From Longimicrobiales bacterium (GTDB lineage: Bacteria > Gemmatimonadota > Gemmatimonadetes > Longimicrobiales > Gaopeijiaceae), in assembly GCA_965204735.1 (NCBI GenBank), contig OZ242008.1, positions 4,032,001 to 4,096,000 on the forward strand: a stretch of 64,000 nucleotides of DNA, read 5' to 3'. The notes under the pieces were generated by a model. The model made no database searches, was not told the origin of the DNA, and saw only the letters and a list, made by a program, of their open reading frames with translations. Positions 7,157 to 22,323 of the stretch are shown one piece after another. How positions within the stretch are numbered: position 1 is the first letter of the stretch; each line of letters begins with the position of its first letter. The translations under genes and the position numbers were made by a program.

Positions 7157-9937
7157 CTACGGAGCCATTGCCCGGTGCCACTCCTCGGGCTTGAGCGAGA
7201 CCAGGTTCGCGAACAGGCGGTAGGCCCCGGGCACGCCGGCGGGGAACTGCCGGAAGAACGCGATCCCGGTGTAGACGTAGAGCCCGTCGCCCACGGGCGC
7301 GACGAGAAGGCCTCCGCGCTTGGGCGCTTCTCCGGGGTCGGCGGTCTCGAGGAGGGGCACGAAGCGGTCGTCCCACTCCGACAGGAAGTAGAGGCCCCGC
7401 TCCTGCACCCAGCCGTCGAAGTCGGAAGGACCGATCGCGTTGGGCGTGGTGAACACCGGCGCGCCGGGCATGGCAATGGACACGGGGGCCGTCTCGTCGG
7501 TGACTCGATCGTGGGGACGGTCGATCCGCACCGGATAGGGCGCGAACCCGCCCTGGGAGTAGCCGTATCGGTTGTACTGCACCACGACCGTGCCGCCTTG
7601 CCGGGCGAACTCCAGCAACGACTCGTTGGCAGCGGCCAAGTCGGGCCGGGTCTCGTAGGCGCGGACGCCGAGAACGAGCGCGTCGTACTCGCCGAAGTCG
7701 CCGTCGCGAACCCGCTCGGGGCCCAGGAGGTCCACCATCGCTCCCATCTGGCGGAGCGCTTCGGGGCCTCCGTCTCCCGAGCCCATCACGTAGCCGATCC
7801 GCAACGACGGGTCGGCCACGACCGGAAACGCCGACACGACGCTCCTCGCGGGGCGCAAGAGGGCGGCGCGCCGAACGTGGGGATGGTCCACCACGTCGTA
7901 GTCGTCGTCGAAGAGGGCGCCGTGCTGATCGACCGCCACAGCCCGGAAGTCGTGGCGTCCCTCCTGCACCGGGCCGGTCGGCGCCGCTCGGAAGGCGAAC
8001 GATCCGCGCGTGCCGTCGGGCCCGGCGCCGGGTTCCAGGTCGAAGGGCGCCGACTCCGGCTCGGTCCGCCATCCGTCCGGGGCGACGACCCGCACGGACC
8101 CGAAACGGCGGGTGGACGACGTGTTGGCGATGACGACGGTGATCTCTCGGGCGTCGGCGGCCCCGACCGGCCAGACCATTACCTGCGGATGCGCTTCCAC
8201 GTCGAGGGCCGGGACGACCAGCACGGGTTCCCGGTACTCGCCCGACGCCGGATCGACCCCCACGTAGCCGCCTCCCCGGCGGACCTCGACGCGGCGCTCG
8301 GAGCCGTCGGGCGGCGCAATGGCCAGGCCGACGGCGACCTGCACGGGAGACGGATCGAACGGCCTCGCCCAGCGCGCCGGCTCGTCCGGCCACTCGTAGA
8401 GCCATCCGTTCCGTTCCTGCTCCAAGTAGTACGGCGCGGACGGGCGGGCGTCGGGCGGAATGCTCGCCGTCCAGCTCCATCGGGCGATCCCGCCGGGGGG
8501 CACGCGCCCGTCCGTCGGCGTGTCCGGCACCGTGGGGCGGAAGAAGAAGGAGCGGGACGACTCCATGGCCGATTCGGCCGTGGGCTCGGCGGTCCATCCA
8601 TCCGGCAGCGCCAGTCGGGGCGCGACGCGGCGAAGCGGCAGGGCGCCGCCGTTCCACACGACGACGTCCACCACCGCCGACTCGCCCGGGGTCAGGAAGC
8701 TCCTCCCGACCCGCGCCTCCACCACCACTCCGGCAGCGGCCAGGGCGGTCTCTCGGACGCGGGCCAAGCGCTGCTCGAGCGTTCGGCGGGCTTCGCCGGA
8801 GGGCGCCTCCTCCACCAGCGCCTCCAGGATGCCCGCCGCTTCCAGCAGTCCGGTTGCCGAGTCCTGGGTTCGCAGGGCGGTCAAGCGGCCGCGGGCGCTG
8901 GCCACGGCTTGCCGGTAGGCGTCCAGGCGCGCCTGCGAGTCTCCCGGCCACTCGGGCGGGAGGGGGTTCGGCAGCTGGCCGAACAACGTCGTGTCCACTC
9001 CGGCGAAGACGCCGTCGGCGTCGCCTTCCCCGACTCGCGACGCCAGGAGTTGCAGCGGCGCGTCCCGGGGACCCATGTACTCGGCCGATCCCATGTCCTG
9101 CGAGCGGTGCCGGCTGCGGCTCCGCATCGCCAGCTGGAAGTAGGAACGCCCCAGGACCGGATCGAACGTGCCGGTGGGCACTCGGACGGTGGCGTCGGCG
9201 CGCGAGAAGCGGGCCGAACGGTACAGCTTGGCGGGCGTCCAGGGCGTCACGCCGTGAGCCGCGAGCTCCGGGAAGCGGTTCGGATCGCCGGCCGCCTCGA
9301 ACGCCTCGAGGGCCAAGACGCCCGCCGCTTGATGGTGGCCATGGCCGTCCCGCGACGTCCCGGAAAAGATCGAGACGACCACGTGAGGCCGGAAGGAGCG
9401 CATCACGAACACCACGTCCCGCAGCACTTCGTCCATGGGCCAATGGGACAGCGTCTCCTCCAACGTCTTGGAGTAGCCGAAGTCGAAGGCCCGGCTGAAG
9501 AACTGGGCGCCGCCGTCCAGCGCGCGGGCCGCCTCGAGCTCGCCGGTGCGGATGATCCCCAGCCCCTCGTGCAGGCGGGGACCTATCAGGTTCTGGCCGC
9601 CTTCGCCGCGCGTCAGGGAGAGGTAGGCCGTTTCGGCGCCGGCGCCTCGGGCCAGCGCCGCCAGAAGGCTCGTGTCCTCGTCGTCGGGGTGCGCGGCGAT
9701 CATCAGCAGGCGCTTGACCCCGTCGAGCTGACGGAACTGGAGAGCGACCGCCGCTGCGCCGCGCTCCTCTTGCCCGGCGGCGCCATGGAGCTGCCCGGCG
9801 GCGCCAAGCCACCCTCCCGCCGCCAGCAGGCAGGCAGCGACGGTCGTCCTTCTCGCCTGCCCGCACCCGGCGCGCCTCCGCCCCGGCCTCCGGCCCAGCA
9901 AGCAGGTCGCGACGGTCGTCCTTCTCGCTTGTCTCAT
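7157..9937 (-). CDS. PIG-L/LmbE-family deacetylase with NEW3-like and GATase-like C-terminal domains
   Basis: AAHPDDE, TRGEGGQN, HGHH motifs; signal-like N-terminus; in-frame GTG at 10027 is an alternative start. Confidence 0.88.
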   Translation of the reverse strand: MRQARRTTVATCLLGRRPGRRRAGCGQARRTTVAACLLAAGGWLGAAGQLHGAAGQEERGAAAVALQFRQLDGVKRLLMIAAHPDDEDTSLLAALARGAGAETAYLSLTRGEGGQNLIGPRLHEGLGIIRTGELEAARALDGGAQFFSRAFDFGYSKTLEETLSHWPMDEVLRDVVFVMRSFRPHVVVSIFSGTSRDGHGHHQAAGVLALEAFEAAGDPNRFPELAAHGVTPWTPAKLYRSARFSRADATVRVPTGTFDPVLGRSYFQLAMRSRSRHRSQDMGSAEYMGPRDAPLQLLASRVGEGDADGVFAGVDTTLFGQLPNPLPPEWPGDSQARLDAYRQAVASARGRLTALRTQDSATGLLEAAGILEALVEEAPSGEARRTLEQRLARVRETALAAAGVVVEARVGRSFLTPGESAVVDVVVWNGGALPLRRVAPRLALPDGWTAEPTAESAMESSRSFFFRPTVPDTPTDGRVPPGGIARWSWTASIPPDARPSAPYYLEQERNGWLYEWPDEPARWARPFDPSPVQVAVGLAIAPPDGSERRVEVRRGGGYVGVDPASGEYREPVLVVPALDVEAHPQVMVWPVGAADAREITVVIANTSSTRRFGSVRVVAPDGWRTEPESAPFDLEPGAGPDGTRGSFAFRAAPTGPVQEGRHDFRAVAVDQHGALFDDDYDVVDHPHVRRAALLRPARSVVSAFPVVADPSLRIGYVMGSGDGGPEALRQMGAMVDLLGPERVRDGDFGEYDALVLGVRAYETRPDLAAANESLLEFARQGGTVVVQYNRYGYSQGGFAPYPVRIDRPHDRVTDETAPVSIAMPGAPVFTTPNAIGPSDFDGWVQERGLYFLSEWDDRFVPLLETADPGEAPKRGGLLVAPVGDGLYVYTGIAFFRQFPAGVPGAYRLFANLVSLKPEEWHRAMAP

Positions 9938-10005
9938 CTCGTCACCGCCTTTGGCCGCTTGGGCCAATGAGGTCGTGGGCCCCCCGAGTCCGGCGTCTCG
10001 CCTTG

Positions 10006-10935
10006 CTACCCTCGCCGCTTGGGCCACGCCAGGGCAAGGGCGGCGGGCGCCCGGGAGCGACCGAAACCACCCGCCAGGGCGACCAACGCCAGAGCGTAGG
10101 GGAGCGCCAGCAGCAGAGGGTAGGGCAGCTCCACGTCCATGGCCTGGAGGGCGAACTGAAGGGCTTCGGCGCATCCGAAGAAGAGGGCTGCCGCCAGAAC
10201 GCCCCTGGGGTCCCACCTGCCCAGCGCCACGATCGCGATCGCGACGAACCCCTTCCCCGCCGACATGCCCTCGCTGAACGTCCCCGTGTGCACCAAGCTC
10301 AAGTGGGCGCCGGCGAGGCCGCCCAGCAACCCGCCGAAGAGGACGGCCATGGTGCGGACCGCCTTCACCGGAACCCCGGCCGCATGGGCGGCGTCCGGTG
10401 CCTCGCCGACGGCCCGAAGCACCAGCCCCCACCGAGTTCGGAAGAGGAACCACCACAGCGCCGGCGCCAGCACATAGACTAGGTAGATGGTTGCGGCCTG
10501 GTCGAAGAGGACGGGCCCCGCAATGGGGATGCGGGACAAGATCGGCGCCTCCCATGCAGGGACCGTCGGCAGCTCCAGGGCCACGCCGGTAGCGCCGAAG
10601 CGGCTCTGGAAGACGGCTCCCGTGAACCCCAGGCTGCCAAGGGCGACGGCGGCGCCGGTGATGATCTGATTGGTGTTCATGAGGACGGCGAAGAGCGCGA
10701 AGACCAGTGCGGCGGCGCACCCGGCCATTGCCCCGCCCGCCAGTCCCCAGTAAGGCCCGGCCGCCAGCGAGCCCAGCGCGGCTCCCAGCGCGCCCCAGAT
10801 CACCGAGCCCTCCATGCCGATGTTGACGACGCCGGCTCGCTCGGAGGCCGTCTCGCCCAGCGCGGCGAGAGCGAGGGGCGCGGCCAAGCCGGTTGCCGCG
10901 GCGAGGACCGACGCGAACGCTGCCGTCTCACCCAT
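10006..10935 (-). CDS. ABC transporter permease (nucleoside/BMP-associated)
   Basis: ERAGVVNIGMEG, LRAVGEAP, GKGFVAIAIV. Confidence 0.92.
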   Translation of the reverse strand: MGETAAFASVLAAATGLAAPLALAALGETASERAGVVNIGMEGSVIWGALGAALGSLAAGPYWGLAGGAMAGCAAALVFALFAVLMNTNQIITGAAVALGSLGFTGAVFQSRFGATGVALELPTVPAWEAPILSRIPIAGPVLFDQAATIYLVYVLAPALWWFLFRTRWGLVLRAVGEAPDAAHAAGVPVKAVRTMAVLFGGLLGGLAGAHLSLVHTGTFSEGMSAGKGFVAIAIVALGRWDPRGVLAAALFFGCAEALQFALQAMDVELPYPLLLALPYALALVALAGGFGRSRAPAALALAWPKRRG

Positions 10936-12031
10936 CGGGCGTCCGTCCCGGTCGTCGCCGCTGGCCCCGTCGACCCTGGCGCGCCCCCGCTGCGCTCAAG
11001 CCCCGGTCCACGGCCAGGAGGGCCAGGATCAGGAGGGCTTCCGTGCCCCGCACCCACGCCTCCGGGACTCCGGCGTCCCGCTGCATGGCGCCGCCCCCGG
11101 CGCTCAGGGCGCCGAAGACGACGGCGGCAAGCACGACGGCGGCGGGGTTGAGTCGGGCCAGCAGCGCCACGGCGATCGCCGTGTAGCCCCAGCCCGGCGA
11201 CAGCCCTTCGTACATCCGGCCCGTCACCCCGGCGACCTGCACCCAACCGGCCAAGCCCGCCAGCGCGCCGGAGACGAGGAACGCCAGCCAGATCGTGGGC
11301 TCGACGGCCATGCGGCCGCTGGCCTCGGCGGCCCGTGGCGCCGCGCCCACGGCTCGAAGCCGAAAGCCGCCCGCCGCGCGGGTCAGGTAGAGCCACGCCG
11401 CCCCCGCCAGTACGACGCCGAGCAGAAAGCCCACGTGGAGGCGGCTGCCGGGAAGGAGCGGCGGCAACGCGGCGGCGGCGGGGATCTCGTCGGTCTGGTT
11501 GAAGACCCGCCGGGCTTCCTGCAGCGGTCCCTGCACCAAGTACTGGGCAAGGAAGAGGGCGACGAAGTTCATGAGGAGCGTGGTGATCACTTCGCCCACG
11601 CCCAGGCGCGTCTTCATTGCCGCCGGAACCGCGGCCCACAGGGCTCCCGCCGTCGCTGCCGCGAGGAGCGCGACGGGAAGCAGCCACAGCCACGATCCTC
11701 CGTCCGCCCCGGGGAACGAGACGGCCACGGCCGCGCCCGCCAGGGCTCCGGCGTGCAGCTGGCCTTCCGCGCCGATGTTCCACACCCCGGCCTTGAACGC
11801 GAGGGCCACGGCCAAGCCCGTCAGGAGCAGAGGCGTGGCCTGCACCAGCGTGAACGACGTGAAGCGGTTCCACGACCCGAACGCGCCCTGCCAGAGCGCG
11901 CGGGAGGCTTCGACCGGCGAGTGCCCGCCAAGCGCCAGAAGGGCGGCGGCCACGACGAGGGTCGCCAAGAGCGCGGCCCCGGCTTGCGCAGCCGGCCGAA
12001 GTGCCGTCCCGACGCCCGCGCCGCCAGTCAC
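10928..12031 (-). CDS. ABC transporter permease (nucleoside/BMP-associated)
   Basis: WNIGAEGQ, EVITTLLMN, GYTAIAVALL; GTG 12031 (or 12040). Confidence 0.92.
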   Translation of the reverse strand: MTGGAGVGTALRPAAQAGAALLATLVVAAALLALGGHSPVEASRALWQGAFGSWNRFTSFTLVQATPLLLTGLAVALAFKAGVWNIGAEGQLHAGALAGAAVAVSFPGADGGSWLWLLPVALLAAATAGALWAAVPAAMKTRLGVGEVITTLLMNFVALFLAQYLVQGPLQEARRVFNQTDEIPAAAALPPLLPGSRLHVGFLLGVVLAGAAWLYLTRAAGGFRLRAVGAAPRAAEASGRMAVEPTIWLAFLVSGALAGLAGWVQVAGVTGRMYEGLSPGWGYTAIAVALLARLNPAAVVLAAVVFGALSAGGGAMQRDAGVPEAWVRGTEALLILALLAVDRGLSAAGARQGRRGQRRRPGRTPDG

Positions 12032-12178
12032 GGCGCGCACCCTGCAAGTGCCTTCGGCGTGCGCGACGCGCCGGAAGTCCCGACCTCCGCGCCGTCAATC
12101 ACGGTGCGCGCACCCGCGCGCGGACGGCAGCCGCCAACCGGCCCCGGCCCCGACCCAGCGTGCCGCCTGCGCCGTCGA

Positions 12179-13720
12179 TCACGGCCCGACCACGCCGACG
12201 GCGCCCAGCATGATTTCGCCGATGGCGGCCGCGGAGCGCCGGTGCGGTGGCACGGGCGCCAACCGGCCTCGGACCATGACCACGATCCGGTCCGCCAACT
12301 CGAGGATCTCGTCCAGGTCCGGGGAGATCAGGACGACGCCCGGCGGCGGCTTCTCCGATGCCTTGGGACCGACGGGCCGCGCAACTCGCCGCAACCGGCT
12401 CCGAACCGCCTGGGACGCCCGGATGTCGAGTCCGCGTGTCGGCGATTCGGCGACCAGCAGGTCTCCCGACCGAAGGAACTCCCGGCCCGCCAGCAACTTC
12501 TGCTGGTTTCCGCCCGAAAGCTCGGCCGCCGGCTTCGACGGCCCCTCCCGGGCCAGCACGTCCATCTCGTCCAGAAGCCGCGCGGTTCGGCCCTCGACGT
12601 TGCGCCACTTGAGCCATGGCCCGGTCCTGCAGGCCGGGTCGTCGTGCACCGCCAGGGCGATGTTCTCGACGAGCGAGAATCCGCCGACAAGCCCCTCCTC
12701 GGTTCGGTCCTGCGGGATCCACCCCACCACGTCCGGCCGGCGGACCCGGCCCGAATCGGGCTTGGCGACCCCCGCCAACACGGCCGCCAGTTCCCGTTGG
12801 CCGTTGCCTTCCACGCCGGCGACCCCGACGATCTCTCCTCGCCGCACCTCGAAGCTGACCTTCCGCAGTCCGCAACGACTCCTGCCGCGAGAGGTCACGT
12901 CCCTCAGGGAAGCCACGACTTGGCTCGCCTCGACGCTGGCGACACCGTTGCGCAGGACGTCCGAGGGTCCGTCCGAGACCCTGCCCGGGCCCAGGGCCGA
13001 TCCCAACATTGCCTGGGCCAGCTCGGCGGCGGAAGTGGCGGACGCGTCCCTCGCGAGCACCCTCTTTCCATTGCGAAGCACGGTCACGCGATCGGCCACC
13101 GCCAGGACCTCGTCCAGCTTGTGGGCCACCAGCACGATCGCCGCGCCAGAGCGAGCCAGCCGCCGCAGCGCCGCGAAGAGCCCCTCCACTTCCTGGGGCG
13201 CCAGCACGGCCGTCGGCTCGTCCAGAAGCAGAACGCGGGCGGCGCCGATCAACGCCTTGAGGATCTCGACCCGCTGGCGCTCGCCGACGCTCATCTCCCG
13301 GCAGGGCATGTCCAGCTCCACCTCCAGCCCCAACTCCCGGGCGCGGGCCTCCACCCGCTCCCGACGCCCGGGCGCCGCCGTGCCCCGCCGAGTCCACCCG
13401 TCCCGATCGAAGAGCGCCACGTTCTCGAAGCCGGTGAAGCGGGGGACCAGCGAAAAGTGCTGATGGACCATGGACACGCCCAAGGACCGAGAGGCTGCGG
13501 CGTTCCCGAAGGCGACCTCCCGTCCGCCGATCTCCATTTCGCCGGCGTCCACCGACAGGAGGCCCGCCACGGCCCGGGCCAGAGTCGTCTTCCCGGCGCC
13601 GTTCTCCCCCAGAAGCCCGTGAACCTCGCCGGGCGCCAAGTCGAAGCGGACTCCATCCAGGGCCACGACCCGGCCGAACCGCTTGGAGACCCCTCGGAGC
13701 CGTGCCGCGGGAACCGTCAT
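12179..13720 (-). CDS. ABC transporter ATP-binding protein (two NBDs, sugar/nucleoside type)
   Basis: GENGAGKTT, LLDEPT, LSGGNQQK, SPTRGLD. Confidence 0.93.
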   Translation of the reverse strand: MTVPAARLRGVSKRFGRVVALDGVRFDLAPGEVHGLLGENGAGKTTLARAVAGLLSVDAGEMEIGGREVAFGNAAASRSLGVSMVHQHFSLVPRFTGFENVALFDRDGWTRRGTAAPGRRERVEARARELGLEVELDMPCREMSVGERQRVEILKALIGAARVLLLDEPTAVLAPQEVEGLFAALRRLARSGAAIVLVAHKLDEVLAVADRVTVLRNGKRVLARDASATSAAELAQAMLGSALGPGRVSDGPSDVLRNGVASVEASQVVASLRDVTSRGRSRCGLRKVSFEVRRGEIVGVAGVEGNGQRELAAVLAGVAKPDSGRVRRPDVVGWIPQDRTEEGLVGGFSLVENIALAVHDDPACRTGPWLKWRNVEGRTARLLDEMDVLAREGPSKPAAELSGGNQQKLLAGREFLRSGDLLVAESPTRGLDIRASQAVRSRLRRVARPVGPKASEKPPPGVVLISPDLDEILELADRIVVMVRGRLAPVPPHRRSAAAIGEIMLGAVGVVGP

Positions 13721-13810
13721 GCGAATGGTCTCGCCGGAGTCGACCGGGCGGCAGGCCTCGATGCGCGACGGCGCGCGGCGCGCCAAGTCATGCGAAGGTC
13801 CCGGCGAGAG

Positions 13811-14869
13811 TCAACCAGGCGGCTGGGCCTCGTCGTCCGTCCCCGCCTCCGTCTCCAGGTAGCGGACTCGAGGAACCTCCAGCCGCCCGTCGGCGATCTC
13901 CCGCCGCGCGGCCCCGATCCGCTCCATCGCAGCGGCAGGTACGACGCCGGGAAGCAACGGATTGGGCACGAAATCCACGGCGCCCGACGCCAAGCCCGAG
14001 TGGAGCGGCCCCGCCAGAGTCCCGTTCCGCCATTGACGCGCCGTCCGAAGAAAGATCGTCGGGATGTCGATCACCGCGCTCCCCACGATCACGTCGGGCG
14101 CCACGCTGTTCTGATCCCGGTTCATGCCGAACGCCCAAGCCTCTCGTCCCTCCGCCCTCGCCTCCCGCACGGCCTGGAAGACGCCGAAGCTGGCGGCGTC
14201 CACGTTGTGGATCAGCACGTCGGCCCCCCGGCGGAGCTGGGCCGCCGCCGCTTCCTTGGCCGCCGACACGTCGTCCCAGCTTCCCGTGAAGGTCTCCAGC
14301 ACCGCGGTTGCGGGCCGCACCGCCTTCACCCCTGCCGAGAAGGCCATGAAGGTCCCCCTCACCGGCGGAATCTCGACTCCGCCCACCATCCCCACCATCC
14401 CCGCCTGCGTGACGCTCCCTGCCGCGATCCCCGCCAGGTAGGCCGCCTCGTTCAGGTGGAAGATCAGCGGCACCACGTTGTCCGAATGCCGGGAGCCCGA
14501 GGACACCACGAAGATCGCATCCGGGTATTGCTGCGCCGCGCGCTCGGCGGCGTCCTGGTACTCGAACCCGTGGCCGAAGATCAGTCCGAAGCCGGACTCC
14601 GCGTAGGAGAGGAACGCTTCGTCGAAGTCGGCGGGCGTCCGGGTCTGCTGGTGAGAGACCCGCACGCCCAGCGAGTCGTCGATCCTTTGGAGCCCTTCGT
14701 AGGCGCCCGCGTGCCACCCCGCGTCGCTGACCGGTCCCGAGGTGAGGAGCGCCACCGCCGACGCGGAACGGACGTCGCCGGAGCCGGCCTTCTCGGCGTC
14801 GCCGCAACCCCCGGTCGCCAAGAGGAGAGCCGAGGACGCGACCCCAAGCCTTCCGATGCCCCGCATCAT
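13811..14869 (-). CDS. BMP-family substrate-binding lipoprotein
   Basis: lipobox-like TGGC, GPVSDAGW, FGHGFEY, YLAGIAA. Confidence 0.92.
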   Translation of the reverse strand: MMRGIGRLGVASSALLLATGGCGDAEKAGSGDVRSASAVALLTSGPVSDAGWHAGAYEGLQRIDDSLGVRVSHQQTRTPADFDEAFLSYAESGFGLIFGHGFEYQDAAERAAQQYPDAIFVVSSGSRHSDNVVPLIFHLNEAAYLAGIAAGSVTQAGMVGMVGGVEIPPVRGTFMAFSAGVKAVRPATAVLETFTGSWDDVSAAKEAAAAQLRRGADVLIHNVDAASFGVFQAVREARAEGREAWAFGMNRDQNSVAPDVIVGSAVIDIPTIFLRTARQWRNGTLAGPLHSGLASGAVDFVPNPLLPGVVPAAAMERIGAARREIADGRLEVPRVRYLETEAGTDDEAQPPG

Positions 14870-16444: not shown

Positions 16445-18622
16445 TTGGCGGAGGTGCGCGACGGAGCGGACGACAAGCCAGCCGGCCAAGAGACCAACGG
16501 CGAACTCCGCGCCGGCAGCGGCGCCGGCGTCCTAGCGGCCGTCCGCGTCGAAAAGCGGCCAGAGGCGCTGCGGTTCCCGGGGCGGGTTCTGTACTTGGTC
16601 GACGACGCGCAGCTGTTGCGCCGCCAGCTTCACGACGGCTTGGACCTGACGACCGACGAGGCGCTTCGGGCGGGCCTGCGAGACCAGATCAGCACCGACG
16701 AGATCACGCCCGCGTACATCTGCTTCTTCTTCGACGAGACCCTGGGCGAGTTCCCCTACCTGGGGCTTCAGGCCAAGGGCGCGGACGGACCGGAAGCGCC
16801 GGTGAAGCGCGGCGGCGTGCGCGCCGGAGGCTTCGTCTGCTCCGTGGCAGGGAAGCGGCGGGGGAAGGGGTCGAGCCGAGAGCAGAGCCCCTACGCCGAG
16901 CTGATGGCCGGGATCAAGGTGGTCGTGGGCGAGAGCATCGAGCGGATCTACGGCGAGAACTGCCAGAACCTGGGAATGCTGGTCACCACCGACTTCGGCG
17001 TGGTGGAGCGCATTCGGGCTGGCGAAGCGATCCCGCTCTCGGAGTTCACCAGCGGGGCGGACGAGATCACCCGGCAAGTCGTCGAGCACGGCGGCCTCTT
17101 CGAGTTCAACGTGGCCCGGATGCAGGGCAAGGTGTCGCTGCCGCGGCCCAAGGCGCTGAAGGAGGCAAGGTCGGCGTCCGAACTTCCCGCGACGCCTGGC
17201 GATCCGCCTCCGACGCCGGCCGCGCCCCCGGCGGCGCGCCGTCCCATGACCCTGGGCGAGAAGATCTTCTCTCGGAAGTGGGTTGTGGACGCCTCGGCGG
17301 ATCACGTGGGCGTGCCGTGGGCGGAGCCGGGAGAGGCGGGCTTCTTCCGCGCCGACCTGCGCTTCTCGCACGAATACGTGACGCCGATGGCGGCGATCTT
17401 CTTCGAGAAGGCGCTGGGGGCGGACGCCAAGGTGCACGACGCCGACTCCATCCTCTTCTTCAGGGACCACCTCACCTTCCTCCACAAGGCGATGAGCCAG
17501 GAGCGGATCGAGGAGGGCCTCCTCGACGTGGCCAACCAGCTGGAGATCAAGCAGCGGGAGTTCGCCGAGCGCCAGGGCATACGCCTCTACGGGGAGCAGA
17601 TGGGCCACGCAATGGGCTCGGAGGCGATCTGCCACTCGAAGGTGCTCGAAGAGTACGCCGAGCCGGGGATGCTGGTGATCGGCACCGACTCCCACACGCC
17701 CCACGCCGGAGCGGTGGGCGCGCTGGCGTTCGGCGTGGGCACCACGGCGATCTTCAACTCTTGGATCACCAAGGACGTGCGTGCGCGCATCCCGCCCTCG
17801 TTCAAGGTCGTGGTCGCGGGCGCGCCCCCTCGCAACGTGACCGCCAAGGACTACATGCTGGAGATCCTCCGCCACCCGTACGTGCGCGACGGCGACGCGA
17901 TCGGCCAGATCGTCGAGTACGCGGGGCCGGCCGTGGAGGCCCTCTCGGTGGACGAGCGCGCCACGATGACCAACATGGCGGCCGAGGTCGGCGCCTTCAC
18001 AGGAATCGTGGCCGCCGACGAGCGCACCGTGGAGTTCCTGGTGGAGGAAAGGGGAATGGACCCGGAGCTCGCCCGCGCCTTGGCGGATGGGATGCAGAGC
18101 GACCCGGACGCCGAGTACGTGAAGGTCATCGAGATCGACGCTTCTCAGGTGCGGCCGATGGTGGCGCTTCCCGGCGACCCCGGAAACGGCGTGCGAATCG
18201 ACGAGCTGGCCCGGCCCGTTCCCATCGAGATCGCCTACGCCGGCTCGTGCACCGCCGGGAAGAAGGAGGACATGGACATGTACGCCCGCGTCTTTCGAGA
18301 GGCCCGCGAGCGTCACGGGCGGGGGGTTCATCCCGGGGTGAAGTGCTACATCCAGTGCGGCTCGGTGGAGGTGCGGGAGTACGCCAGGGCCAAGGGCTAC
18401 CTGGACCTCTTTCGCGCGATCGGCGCCGAGTTCGTCGAGCCGGGGTGCGGCGCCTGCATCGCGGCCGGCCCGGGCGTCACGGTCCGCCCCGACCAAGTCT
18501 CGGTGTCGTCCCAGAACCGCAACTTTCCCGGACGCTCCGGCCCCGGCCAGCTGTACTTGGTGTCGCCGTACTCGGTGGCCGCGTCGGCAGTGGCGGGACG
18601 AGTGGCGGGCTGGCAGGGCTGA
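16445..18622 (+). CDS. Aconitase-superfamily hydro-lyase; swivel (LeuD-like) domain fused N-terminal to a LeuC-like domain
   Basis: ISTDEITP, GKGSSREQSP, then DSHT, GSCT, PGCGACI, NRNFPGR. Confidence 0.88.
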   Translation: MAEVRDGADDKPAGQETNGELRAGSGAGVLAAVRVEKRPEALRFPGRVLYLVDDAQLLRRQLHDGLDLTTDEALRAGLRDQISTDEITPAYICFFFDETLGEFPYLGLQAKGADGPEAPVKRGGVRAGGFVCSVAGKRRGKGSSREQSPYAELMAGIKVVVGESIERIYGENCQNLGMLVTTDFGVVERIRAGEAIPLSEFTSGADEITRQVVEHGGLFEFNVARMQGKVSLPRPKALKEARSASELPATPGDPPPTPAAPPAARRPMTLGEKIFSRKWVVDASADHVGVPWAEPGEAGFFRADLRFSHEYVTPMAAIFFEKALGADAKVHDADSILFFRDHLTFLHKAMSQERIEEGLLDVANQLEIKQREFAERQGIRLYGEQMGHAMGSEAICHSKVLEEYAEPGMLVIGTDSHTPHAGAVGALAFGVGTTAIFNSWITKDVRARIPPSFKVVVAGAPPRNVTAKDYMLEILRHPYVRDGDAIGQIVEYAGPAVEALSVDERATMTNMAAEVGAFTGIVAADERTVEFLVEERGMDPELARALADGMQSDPDAEYVKVIEIDASQVRPMVALPGDPGNGVRIDELARPVPIEIAYAGSCTAGKKEDMDMYARVFREARERHGRGVHPGVKCYIQCGSVEVREYARAKGYLDLFRAIGAEFVEPGCGACIAAGPGVTVRPDQVSVSSQNRNFPGRSGPGQLYLVSPYSVAASAVAGRVAGWQG

Positions 18623-19910: not shown

Positions 19911-20638
19911 ATGAAGCCGACCTTCCAGCGAGCCCTCTCCCTTCCGCCGGCCGGCGACGAGACCTTCTTCCTGTGGGGGCCTCGCCAGACGGGCAAGAGC
20001 ACCCTCTTGCGGAAGTCCTACCCCGACGCTCGCTGGATCGACTTGCTCAAGGCCGACGACTTCCGCCGCTACGCCGCTCGCCCGGAGCTGCTTCGCCAGG
20101 AAATGGAGGCGGAGCGGACTCGACGCGGCGGGCAAGCCGGCGCATCGAGGTCCTGGAGGACACGCTGCTGGGCAGGTGGCTGCCCGCATACAGAAAGCGA
20201 GCCAAGCGCCGGGTCGTTCAGGCGTCCAAGTTCTACTTCTTCGACGTGGGCGTGGTGAACAGGCTGGCGCGGCGCGGGCAGGTCCTTTCCGGCTCGGCCG
20301 ACTACGGCAAGGCGTTCGAGAACTGGGTGTTCCACGAGCTGGCGACTTACCTGGGCTACCAGGAAGTGGACGCGGAGCTCTCCTACTGGCGACTGGCCGG
20401 CGGCACCGAAGTGGACTTCGTCGTGGGCGACATGGAGGTGGCGCTGGAGGCCAAGTCCAGCCGGAACGTCACCCGAGACCACCTCAAGGGGCTTCGGAGC
20501 TTGGTGCGGGACCATCCGTCGGTCCGGCGGCGAGTCGTGGTGTGCCGGGAGCCTCGTCGTCGGCGAACGAGCGACGGGATCGAGATCGTGCCGGCAAGGG
20601 AGTTCGCCTTCGGGCTCTGGGAGCGGGAGTGGATCTGA
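19911..20638 (+). pseudogene. AAA_14/DUF4143 ATPase with large internal deletion and frameshift
   Basis: N-terminal GPRQTGKST in one frame; KFYFFDVG, FENWV, EVDFV, LEAK in another; Walker B region absent. Confidence 0.85.
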
Positions 20639-22173: not shown

Positions 22174-22215
22174 CGGCCGAGCGACCGGCCTTCGCCGCCC
22201 GGTGGGGCCGCCCCG

Positions 22216-22323
22216 CCTCCGCGTTGACGACGAGCAAGTGTCCGTGGTGGCGGTGGCGCGCCCCAACGGCCCAGGTCGTTCCACGCCCGCCCTCCGCTTT
22301 GACGGCGAGCGAGTGTCCGTGGT
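22216..22323 (+). repeat. 33-bp direct repeat (30/33 identical, 75-bp period); second copy runs into TTGACG-N18-TATATC
   Basis: 22216-22248 versus 22291-22323. Confidence 0.85.

What the first reader, a model, noticed from the sequence alone, without database searches (positions are those of the whole stretch)
12028..13814. Translational relay: chains of stop-start-coupled mini-ORFs span the gaps of an ABC operon
Seen on the - strand: the BMP stop (TTGA) starts an 8-aa ORF 13814-13788. Its ATGA starts a 24-aa ORF 13791-13717, whose ATGA starts the ATPase. The ATPase stop (GTGA) starts a 27-aa ORF 12182-12099, whose GTGA starts a 24-aa ORF 12102-12028, whose GTGA starts the permease. The junctions are duplicated sequences (CCGTGA.(T/C)G.CGGCGC three times; GACC[A]TTCGCATGAC twice). 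Termination-reinitiation at NTGA is established. Inference: junction duplications persist only if the ribosome can still hop through mini-ORFs to SD-poor genes. Caveat: GC-rich DNA has few stops, mostly TGA, so part of this can arise by chance.
Basis: partly seen in the sequence, partly recalled or inferred. Interest (0 to 1): 0.78.

Follow-up and report, generated by a model that had tools for sequence, protein, structure and literature searches.

The report
CRISPR misfire scars preserving translational coupling
The tiny reading frames between these transporter genes are by-products of the bacterium's own CRISPR integrase pasting spacer-sized DNA into stop/start gene junctions by mistake, and across the genome such insertions survive at those junctions almost only when ribosomes can still be handed on to the next gene.

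Summary
All four mini-ORFs and six NTGA overlaps are real. The repeats are not simple junction duplications: each unit is about 37 duplicated bases around a roughly 35-base unique insert, the geometry of this genome's type I-G CRISPR array. The chromosome holds about 120 such scars in two size classes matching its I-E and I-G arrays; some inserts copy distant chromosomal DNA; congeners have the sites empty, with a plain NTGA overlap. Frame is filtered: 30 of 30 scars inside genes are multiples of 3, and 12 of 12 single-insert NTGA junctions keep an unbroken stop-start path (4.9-6.3 expected). So selection for frame is supported. Translation of the mini-ORFs is inferred, not shown; 'SD-poor' fails as a rule; avoiding out-of-frame read-over is an unresolved rival; one unit in each gap fits the geometry only loosely. 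The relay logic is known from mycobacterial MIRUs and off-target integration from laboratory E. coli. This scan noted each separately on other DNA; their combination was not found.

The parts
13811..14869 (-). BMP-family (PnrA-like) substrate-binding lipoprotein, 352 aa, strong SD (-10.3 kcal/mol); stop TTGA
   Evidence: PF02608 E 1.4e-49; SD
13788..13814 (-). mini-ORF 1, 8 aa, TTG start on the BMP stop; older than the scar (congener G003 has a 9-aa version bridging BMP to ATPase)
13787..13823 (-). gap 1 repeat copy 1, 37-nt core holding BMP stop, mini-ORF 1 and the first ATGA; similarity may reach 9 nt further upstream (to 13832)
13753..13786 (-). gap 1 unique insert, 34 nt (26 nt if the longer repeat is right); begins with a TTG in the ATPase frame; no source found in the genome
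13716..13752 (-). gap 1 repeat copy 2, ends in the ATPase ATGA; the copied BMP stop has mutated
13717..13791 (-). mini-ORF 2, 24 aa, from ATGA of copy 1 to ATGA of copy 2 (period 71 = 2 mod 3)
12179..13720 (-). two-domain ABC ATPase, 513 aa; stop GTGA
   Evidence: PF00005, two stretches
12160..12193 (-). gap 2 repeat copy 1 (oldest, most decayed; limits approximate), holds the ATPase stop; start region in a strong hairpin (-28.6 kcal/mol)
12114..12159 (-). gap 2 first unique insert (limits approximate; contains a 6-nt tandem copy, period now 80)
12099..12182 (-). mini-ORF 3, 27 aa: permease-like first residues, insert, ATPase-like last residues
12077..12113 (-). gap 2 repeat copy 2, 37 nt
   Evidence: genome-wide scar scan, 30 of 37 identical to copy 3
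12043..12076 (-). gap 2 second unique insert, 34 nt (36 nt under a gapped reading); unrelated to the first insert; no source found
12028..12102 (-). mini-ORF 4, 24 aa (period 71 = 2 mod 3)
12006..12042 (-). gap 2 repeat copy 3, 37 nt, holds the permease GTG start, buried in a hairpin (-26.4 kcal/mol; 1.7% of 2389 called starts are this stable)
10928..12031 (-). ABC permease 1, 367 aa
   Evidence: PF02653 E 2.3e-39
10006..10935 (-). ABC permease 2, 309 aa, 8-nt overlap with permease 1
   Evidence: PF02653 E 9e-32
9823..9931 (-). another scar of the same class: 37-nt repeat, 35-nt insert, 37-nt repeat (period 72, in frame) at the 5' end of the PIG-L-family gene
22209..22320 (+). another scar of the same class: 37 + 38 + 37 nt (period 75) inside a 199-nt gap that is itself crossed by one NTGA-to-NTGA ORF

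Best explanation
An ordinary nucleoside/BMP-type ABC operon of a Longimicrobiales (Gemmatimonadota) bacterium whose stop/start overlaps were hit by off-target spacer integration. Cas1-Cas2 of a type I-G system nicks both strands 37 bp apart, inserts a 34-38 bp fragment, and repair duplicates the 37-bp target. When the target spans an NTGA overlap, the upstream gene now stops in copy 1 and the downstream gene starts in copy 2. If the added length is 2 mod 3, the start codon in copy 1 opens a mini-ORF that ends exactly on the start in copy 2; if 0 mod 3 the downstream protein gains an N-terminal extension; if 1 mod 3 coupling is lost and the ribosome runs out of frame over the next start. Selection removes the last class unless an internal NTGA or a later small indel restores the path. 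Gap 2 took two such insertions, gap 1 took one on top of an older 8-aa bridge. The mini-peptides are junk; the open frame is what is kept. Shown: geometry, cognate cas genes, empty sites, frame bias. Inferred: that Cas1-Cas2 made these particular inserts (about 0.9 for 12006-12113, about 0.7 for the other two), and that ribosomes re-initiate through each mini-ORF (about 0.65).
For: Arrays: I-E repeat 28 nt, period 61 in 54 of 56 intervals; I-G repeat 37 nt, spacers 33-42 nt in 36 of 38; Cas1g (Cas4-Cas1), Cas2g, Cas3g, Cas7g, Cas8g and Cas3e, Cas8e, Cas7e, Cas2e matched, a 296-aa Cas1-like frame in the I-E locus. Outside the arrays, 37-nt island repeats number 6, 42, 10, 12, 17 at lags 71-75 and 0-1 at every non-multiple of 3 from 76 to 130; 28-nt islands number 23 and 19 at lags 60 and 61. 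The 44 short-class targets resemble the I-E repeat (14.43 vs 12.99 of 28 matches, p 5e-9). 7 of 121 inserts match a distant chromosomal site with homology ending at the insert borders, against 19 of 2000 random 33-mers (p 4e-4); 0 of 91 array spacers do. Empty sites: ATPase-permease is a direct NTGA overlap in 19 of 24 orthologous loci, including all 3 congeners; 8 of 8 other scarred junctions tested are direct overlaps without insert in at least one congener (16 of 24 comparisons). Frame: 30 of 30 scars inside called genes are 0 mod 3; 1 mod 3 in 17 of 29 scars in convergent/divergent gaps but 12 of 62 in co-directional gaps (p 3e-4); all 6 period-71 scars lie in co-directional gaps though the array has no 71. 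12 of 12 single-insert junctions keep a path, against 4.9 (array spacers, P 2e-7) or 6.3 (neutral scar spacers, P 2e-4) simulated; I-G class alone 8 of 8, P 0.012 and 0.029. The three gap-2 starts sit in hairpins in the top 0.5-3.7% of called starts. Coupling is lost over gaps of about 20 nt in E. coli and H. volcanii (PMC10666635, abstract).
Against: The 77 I-G-class targets do not resemble the I-G repeat overall (16.18 vs 16.32 of 37, p 0.87), only a slight excess of hairpin stability. No source and no PAM found for the three inserts of this operon, and no consistent PAM at the self-matching inserts (read by eye). Gap 1 similarity may run 45-46 nt with only 26 unique, and gap 2 unit 1 has period 80, outside the array's 72-79. 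Copies are 75-85% alike, so the present Cas1 need not be the one that acted. Bridged starts genome-wide have neither weaker SD nor more structure than uncoupled starts (-13.1 vs -13.5; direct overlaps -17.1). At gaps of 40 nt or more the excess over CTGA controls is marginal (47 of 100 vs 33 of 98, p 0.06). 21 of 29 relatives have no NTGA path at BMP-ATPase. All genome-wide counts rest on a home-made gene finder. The review PMC12548453 (passages) cites studies in which coupling decays only gradually with distance.
Confidence: 0.62

Rival explanations
1. Same scar origin, but selection acts against read-over rather than for relay: ribosomes do re-initiate at the copy-1 start, and what is purged is a long out-of-frame run across the downstream start; the downstream gene initiates afresh from its own SD. 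Mini-ORFs are translated but dispensable.
For: Conditioned on no read-over, the all-intact result has P 0.28 with neutral scar spacers. The permease has a usable SD (-6.2) and bridged starts look like uncoupled starts.
Against: The same conditional test gives P 0.009 with array spacers; the five junction rows of 1 mod 3 all restart on an internal NTGA rather than simply stopping; the permease start is in an unusually stable hairpin.
Confidence: 0.2
2. Ordinary replication-slippage or microhomology duplications of gene junctions, decayed in the middle, with no CRISPR involvement at this locus; frame kept by selection or by codon-phase microhomology.
For: Short duplications (17-26 nt) are common in this genome and congener G003 has a 17-nt triplication of the same junction. 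In-phase microhomology across direct overlaps favours 2 mod 3 over 1 mod 3 by 1.4-2.0 fold. Gap 1 and the first unit of gap 2 fit the 37-nt geometry loosely.
Against: Slippage does not predict half-repeat/half-unique units peaked at the two array periods, inserts copied from distant loci or two unrelated inserts between three copies. 49:11 exceeds a 2:1 mutational bias (p 0.008).
Confidence: 0.12
3. The chains are neutral leftovers: any duplication of an NTGA overlap puts NTGA at both ends, GC-rich DNA has few stops, and the genes initiate independently.
For: Pretend-start controls are 'bridged' in 29% of cases (135 of 468); simulated insertions keep a path in 40-50% of cases, so two intact gaps in one operon are not improbable alone; alternative in-frame starts exist at 13786 and 12040.
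Against: Genome-wide frame bias by context and 20 of 22 scar-bearing NTGA junctions coupled against 5 of 12 pretend controls.
Confidence: 0.06

Closest known systems
Off-target (non-canonical) spacer integration and 'neo-CRISPR arrays' (Nivala, Shipman and Church 2018, Nat Microbiol 3:310; paper not held; seen only as described in PMC7054753, bioRxiv 10.1101/148544 and PMC6698737, passages)
   Same: Repeat-length target duplication around a spacer-length insert at non-CRISPR sites; I-E-class targets resemble the repeat; repeated hits at one site.
   Different: Natural, fixed in the species and about 120 per genome, from two co-resident systems (I-E and I-G); the cited work used over-produced I-E Cas1-Cas2 in E. 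coli with only circumstantial natural cases. I-G-class targets show no overall repeat likeness.
MIRUs of mycobacteria (Supply et al. 1997, seen only as summarised in PMC12548453 section 11)
   Same: An insertion at a start codon carries a short ORF coupled at -4 so that the downstream gene keeps being translated.
   Different: MIRUs are one dispersed repeat family that brings its own ORF; here every unit has a different sequence, the ORF is assembled from the duplicated junction plus a random insert, and the frame is set by selection after the fact.
Termination-reinitiation at NTGA overlaps (Huber et al. 2023, PMC10666635, abstract and outline; PMC12548453, passages and section 11)
   Same: Same junction motif, genes for subunits of one complex, short ORF proposed to 'deliver' a ribosome.
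   Different: Two consecutive hops through junk ORFs; and a natural insertion series that reports on whether the overlap is under selection.
BMP/PnrA-type (nucleoside-family) ABC importers
   Same: Binding protein, two-domain ATPase and two permeases in the usual order.
   Different: Nothing unusual in the proteins; best NCBIfam matches (putative B6 transporter models) are far below their cut-offs, so the substrate is not assigned.

Membership tests
Off-target Cas1-Cas2 integration scar | Direct repeat as long as the cognate CRISPR repeat | tested here: met
   37 nt for 12006-12042/12077-12113 and 9823-9931; array repeat 37 nt. Gap 1 core 37 nt but possibly 45-46; gap 2 copy 1 decayed.
Off-target Cas1-Cas2 integration scar | Unique insert of spacer length | tested here: met
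   34 nt (or 36) in gap 2 unit 2 and 34 in gap 1 against array spacers of 33-42 nt; about 46 nt in gap 2 unit 1, too long unless later indels are allowed.
Off-target Cas1-Cas2 integration scar | Cognate cas1-cas2 in the same genome | tested here: met
   Cas1g E 9e-183, Cas2g, Cas2e; I-E Cas1 frame.
Off-target Cas1-Cas2 integration scar | Empty single-copy site in relatives | tested here: met
   3 of 3 congeners at ATPase-permease, G001 and G003 at BMP-ATPase; 8 of 8 other junctions.
Off-target Cas1-Cas2 integration scar | Target resembles the CRISPR repeat | tested here: inconclusive
   Met for the I-E class (p 5e-9), not met for the I-G class to which this locus belongs (p 0.87); only whole-repeat identity was scored.
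Off-target Cas1-Cas2 integration scar | Insert is captured DNA with a PAM at its source | tested here: inconclusive
   7 of 121 inserts have a sharp chromosomal source; none for this operon; no consistent PAM seen.
Off-target Cas1-Cas2 integration scar | Integration by the purified or expressed enzyme at this site | not testable with these tools
   Needs an integration assay.
MIRU-type dispersed repeat | Homologous copies at many loci | tested here: not met
   Gap sequences match nothing else in the genome beyond 22 nt.
MIRU-type dispersed repeat | [quoted passage not shown] | tested here: met
   (sequence only)
Functional CRISPR array | Repeats of the cognate consensus next to a leader, processed to crRNA | tested here: not met
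   No copy of either consensus within 5 mismatches outside the two arrays; copies here are 75-85% alike and lie inside an operon.
Termination-reinitiation coupling | Downstream translation depends on upstream termination at the overlap | not testable with these tools
   Only indirect support from frame selection.

The most novel reading that the evidence does not exclude
CRISPR integrase misfires are a main source of 60-75-nt insertions in this lineage, and at overlapping gene junctions they build obligatory multi-hop ribosome relays out of random captured DNA; the scars are a natural, sized mutagenesis screen showing that NTGA overlaps are kept for coupling itself, with later 1-2-nt indels (periods 71 and 60, absent from the arrays) selected to restore the path.
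Probability: 0.45. Interest if true: 0.8.

Novelty: new variant of a known kind. Interest (0 to 1): 0.62.

Why it matters
Whether -4 overlaps are selected for translational coupling or are just easy to evolve is still argued (PMC12548453, passages). Scars of known size distribution landing on such overlaps give a ready null, and here the null is rejected. It also shows off-target spacer integration, described mainly from over-expression, acting in nature as a mutagen that lengthens proteins in frame and creates new small ORFs, which matters for small-ORF annotation and for judging the cost of carrying CRISPR adaptation modules.

Tried and rejected
SD strength as a marker of relay: no class difference. 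Start-region structure genome-wide: bridged starts resemble uncoupled ones. Two nulls (random indel, unconditioned swap) were dropped because they were not conditioned on 'not direct' and understate chance; the conditioned swap (69 of 137 vs 37.1 +/- 5.0) replaces them. Miscalled long overlaps as the cause: removing pairs with an in-frame ATG/GTG near the upstream stop leaves 57 of 121 vs 98 of 336. A first count of junction duplications of any length (14, 6, 13 by frame) was uninformative until the length peaks were seen. Whole-repeat likeness of I-G-class targets: negative. Source of this operon's inserts: none in the genome; one 22-nt exact scan of viral contigs for the second gap-2 insert, 0 matches; the other two inserts were not scanned. 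No RNA holder listed. One run (X3) breaks at 12117-12149 and X13 is fragmentary; neither was used. Programmed frameshift fusion was considered and set aside: BMP, ATPase and permease share one frame, are separated by in-frame stops and are separate genes in relatives. Literature searches (titles and abstract starts) showed no paper on genome-wide natural scars or on scars at coupled junctions; subscription papers are not in the library and no supplements were read. Rows dropped before the 12-of-12 count: of 26 junction rows, 11 whose second copy is not in the downstream frame (9 still chain, 2 do not), 2 whose second copy lacks NTGA, and 1 plain 36-nt tandem. Four of 12 fetched junction regions were not searched in congeners.
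Full report
Observation. The minus strand carries a BMP-type ABC operon: binding protein 14869-13811, ATPase 13720-12179, permeases 12031-10928 and 10935-10006. Each NTGA hop shifts the frame by -1, so three hops return to the starting frame, and BMP, ATPase and permease 1 share one frame. The closest relatives by protein are labelled Longimicrobiales or Gemmatimonadota MAGs; runs that hold the region include sponge and marine metagenomes. Contigs from two other studies cross both gaps at about 98.5-99% identity with no 71-nt loss, so the inserts are shared by strains and are not assembly errors.

Is bridging more than chance? I called 2712 genes with a self-trained dicodon model. Of 1461 co-directional pairs with gaps up to 300 nt, 536 are in direct NTGA frame and 94 of the remaining 200 NTGA-ended pairs are bridged (82 by one ORF, 12 by two or three). 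Shuffled gaps give 64.3 +/- 3.4 against 86 of 176, conditioned swaps 37.1 +/- 5.0 against 69 of 137, and real gaps after CTGA or TAG/TAA stops with a pretended start 135 of 468 against 73 of 145. The excess survives removal of possible long overlaps and of all detectable junction duplications (53 of 122 vs 129 of 444, p 0.003), but is marginal against CTGA alone for gaps of 40 nt or more (p 0.06). More than half of the bridges are therefore chance, and a real excess sits on top. Bridged genes do not have weaker SD sites or more structured starts.

Ancestral state. ATPase-permease is a direct NTGA overlap in 19 of 24 orthologous loci and overlaps in another way in 3 more; BMP-ATPase is direct in 7 of 29, bridged by one 9-aa ORF in congener G003, and without an NTGA path in 21. 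So gap 2 replaced a conserved overlap, whereas gap 1 is a looser junction in which the 8-aa ORF predates the insert. Mini-ORFs 3 and 4 are mosaics: they begin like the permease and end like the ATPase, as a copied junction must.

What made the repeats. Junction duplications clustered at 60-61 and 71-75 nt. A genome-wide lag scan showed isolated repeats of about 37 nt at lags 71-75 and about 28 nt at lags 60-61, each pair separated by unique sequence. These are the dimensions of the genome's two CRISPR arrays: I-E, 28-nt repeat, period 61; I-G, 37-nt repeat, spacers mostly 35-39 nt, each beside matching cas genes. After removing low-complexity cases 44 and 77 scars remain; a few of these are still repeat-protein units (two seen). 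The short class resembles the I-E repeat; the long class does not resemble the I-G repeat. Seven of 121 inserts are near-exact copies of distant chromosomal sites with homology ending at the insert borders (19 of 2000 random); one insert elsewhere in the genome matches window 17813-17845 over 33 of 33 bases. No array spacer has such a self match (0 of 91), as expected from established knowledge if self spacers are lethal in an array but harmless in a scar. Eight scarred junctions checked in three congeners are direct overlaps without insert in 16 of 24 comparisons and in at least one congener each; two comparisons show short relays of their own, two a TAG with a small gap, one is unclear and three are not adjacent or missing. 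In vitro, Cas1-Cas2 of P. furiosus makes full-site insertions one repeat length apart at a site only 43% identical to its repeat (PMC6698737, passages).

This locus. The blind scan picked 12006-12113 as a scar (37 + 34 + 37; 30 of 37 identical), with two more in the window at 9823-9931 and 22209-22320. A gapped alignment allows an original period of 73 shortened to 71 by a 2-nt loss, which would be a repair of frame (inference). The first unit of gap 2 (period 80) and gap 1 (37 + 34 + 37, but similarity may extend 9 nt further) are older and fit less tightly. The two gap-2 inserts are unrelated, so two events hit the same target. No source was found for these inserts.

Selection on frame. Array periods are evenly split by frame for I-G (12, 12, 12) and 1 mod 3 for I-E (54 of 55). 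Scars inside called genes are all 0 mod 3 (30 of 30). Scars in convergent or divergent gaps are 1 mod 3 in 17 of 29, those in co-directional gaps in 12 of 62 (p 3e-4), and 2 mod 3 in 3 of 29 against 20 of 62 (p 0.04). Of 26 NTGA junctions with a 57-82-nt repeat, 24 keep a path to the next gene. Among the 12 cleanest, all 12 do, against 4.9-6.3 simulated; for the I-G class alone 8 of 8, P 0.012-0.029. The rows of 1 mod 3 are rescued by an NTGA inside the unit. Codon-phase microhomology favours 2 mod 3 by at most 2-fold, less than the 49:11 seen (p 0.008), and does not apply to integrase insertions. Whether the selected thing is hand-over or only avoidance of out-of-frame read-over is unresolved (P 0.009 or 0.28 by spacer pool). 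At gap 2 the permease start lies in a hairpin more stable than 98% of called starts, which favours dependence on an arriving ribosome; at gap 1 the ATPase start is weak in SD but ordinary in structure, and a TTG one base after the stop of mini-ORF 1 offers a bypass.

Relation to what is known. Off-target integration is known from over-expressed I-E Cas1-Cas2 in E. coli, with circumstantial natural cases (as described in PMC7054753 and bioRxiv 10.1101/148544, passages; the original was not held). Short ORFs that deliver ribosomes, and MIRUs that insert at starts with a -4-coupled ORF, are reviewed in PMC12548453 (section 11 read). It works like a MIRU but is not one, since the units share no sequence. 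Earlier notes of this scan report genome-wide scars in other genomes and relay mini-ORFs in others; they were read after I had reached both readings, are unchecked, and none combined the two. Seven literature searches showed no paper on the combination (listings only).

Verdict. A real feature and a new variant of two known kinds: CRISPR-integrase scars filtered into translational relays. Scar origin is well supported genome-wide and likely here; selection on frame is supported; ribosome hand-over through the mini-ORFs remains an inference.

Noticed in passing
G000:C1:2066887-2101952 (L194, L195): Adjacent type I-E and type I-G CRISPR-Cas loci; the I-G region has two sets of Cas7g/Cas5-6g/Cas8g genes; the I-G array has truncated units near the leader and the I-E array one 229-nt interval.
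   Followed up: partly
window 17813-17845: 33 bases of the aconitase-family gene recur exactly as the insert of a scar at G000 about 3577240, a self-derived spacer outside any array.
   Followed up: partly
L003 (G003) ATPase-permease junction: Independent 17-nt triplication of the same junction; the ATPase reads through two copies and stops in the third, so direct coupling is kept (a 1-nt difference would make it a two-hop relay).
   Followed up: partly
L213, L214 (G001, G003), orthologue of G000 2149644: Each congener has its own short NTGA relay (one and two mini-ORFs) where G002 has a direct overlap and G000 a 74-nt scar relay.
   Followed up: no
G000 genome-wide: Period-60 scars (21) are as common as period-61 (19) although the I-E array is 61 in 54 of 56 intervals; period 60 is concentrated in genes and co-directional gaps, suggesting short spacers or later 1-nt deletions selected for frame.
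   Followed up: partly
G000 genome-wide: A separate class of short duplications (lags 18-26) is frequent, including non-multiples of 3 in gaps; mechanism not examined.
   Followed up: no
window 9954-10026: 13-nt repeat at spacing 60 copying the end of permease 2; possibly a decayed short-class scar.
   Followed up: no
window 19911-20638: An ATPase-like reading is split over two frames (ORFs 19911-20258 and 19973-20638), and one strain contig carries 33 extra letters at 19857-19831 with a step back of about 27 nt, which has the shape of a short-class scar absent from this genome.
   Followed up: no
window 16445-18622: Aconitase-family protein with the C-terminal swivel domain placed before the catalytic domain (PF00694 at 134-179, PF00330 at 301-718).
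   Followed up: no
L032-L047, L111, L112: In several 60-63% relatives the BMP gene ends in CTGA with the ATPase frame open from that CTG; genome-wide in G000 CTGA ends show no clear excess of open frames (76 of 242).
   Followed up: partly
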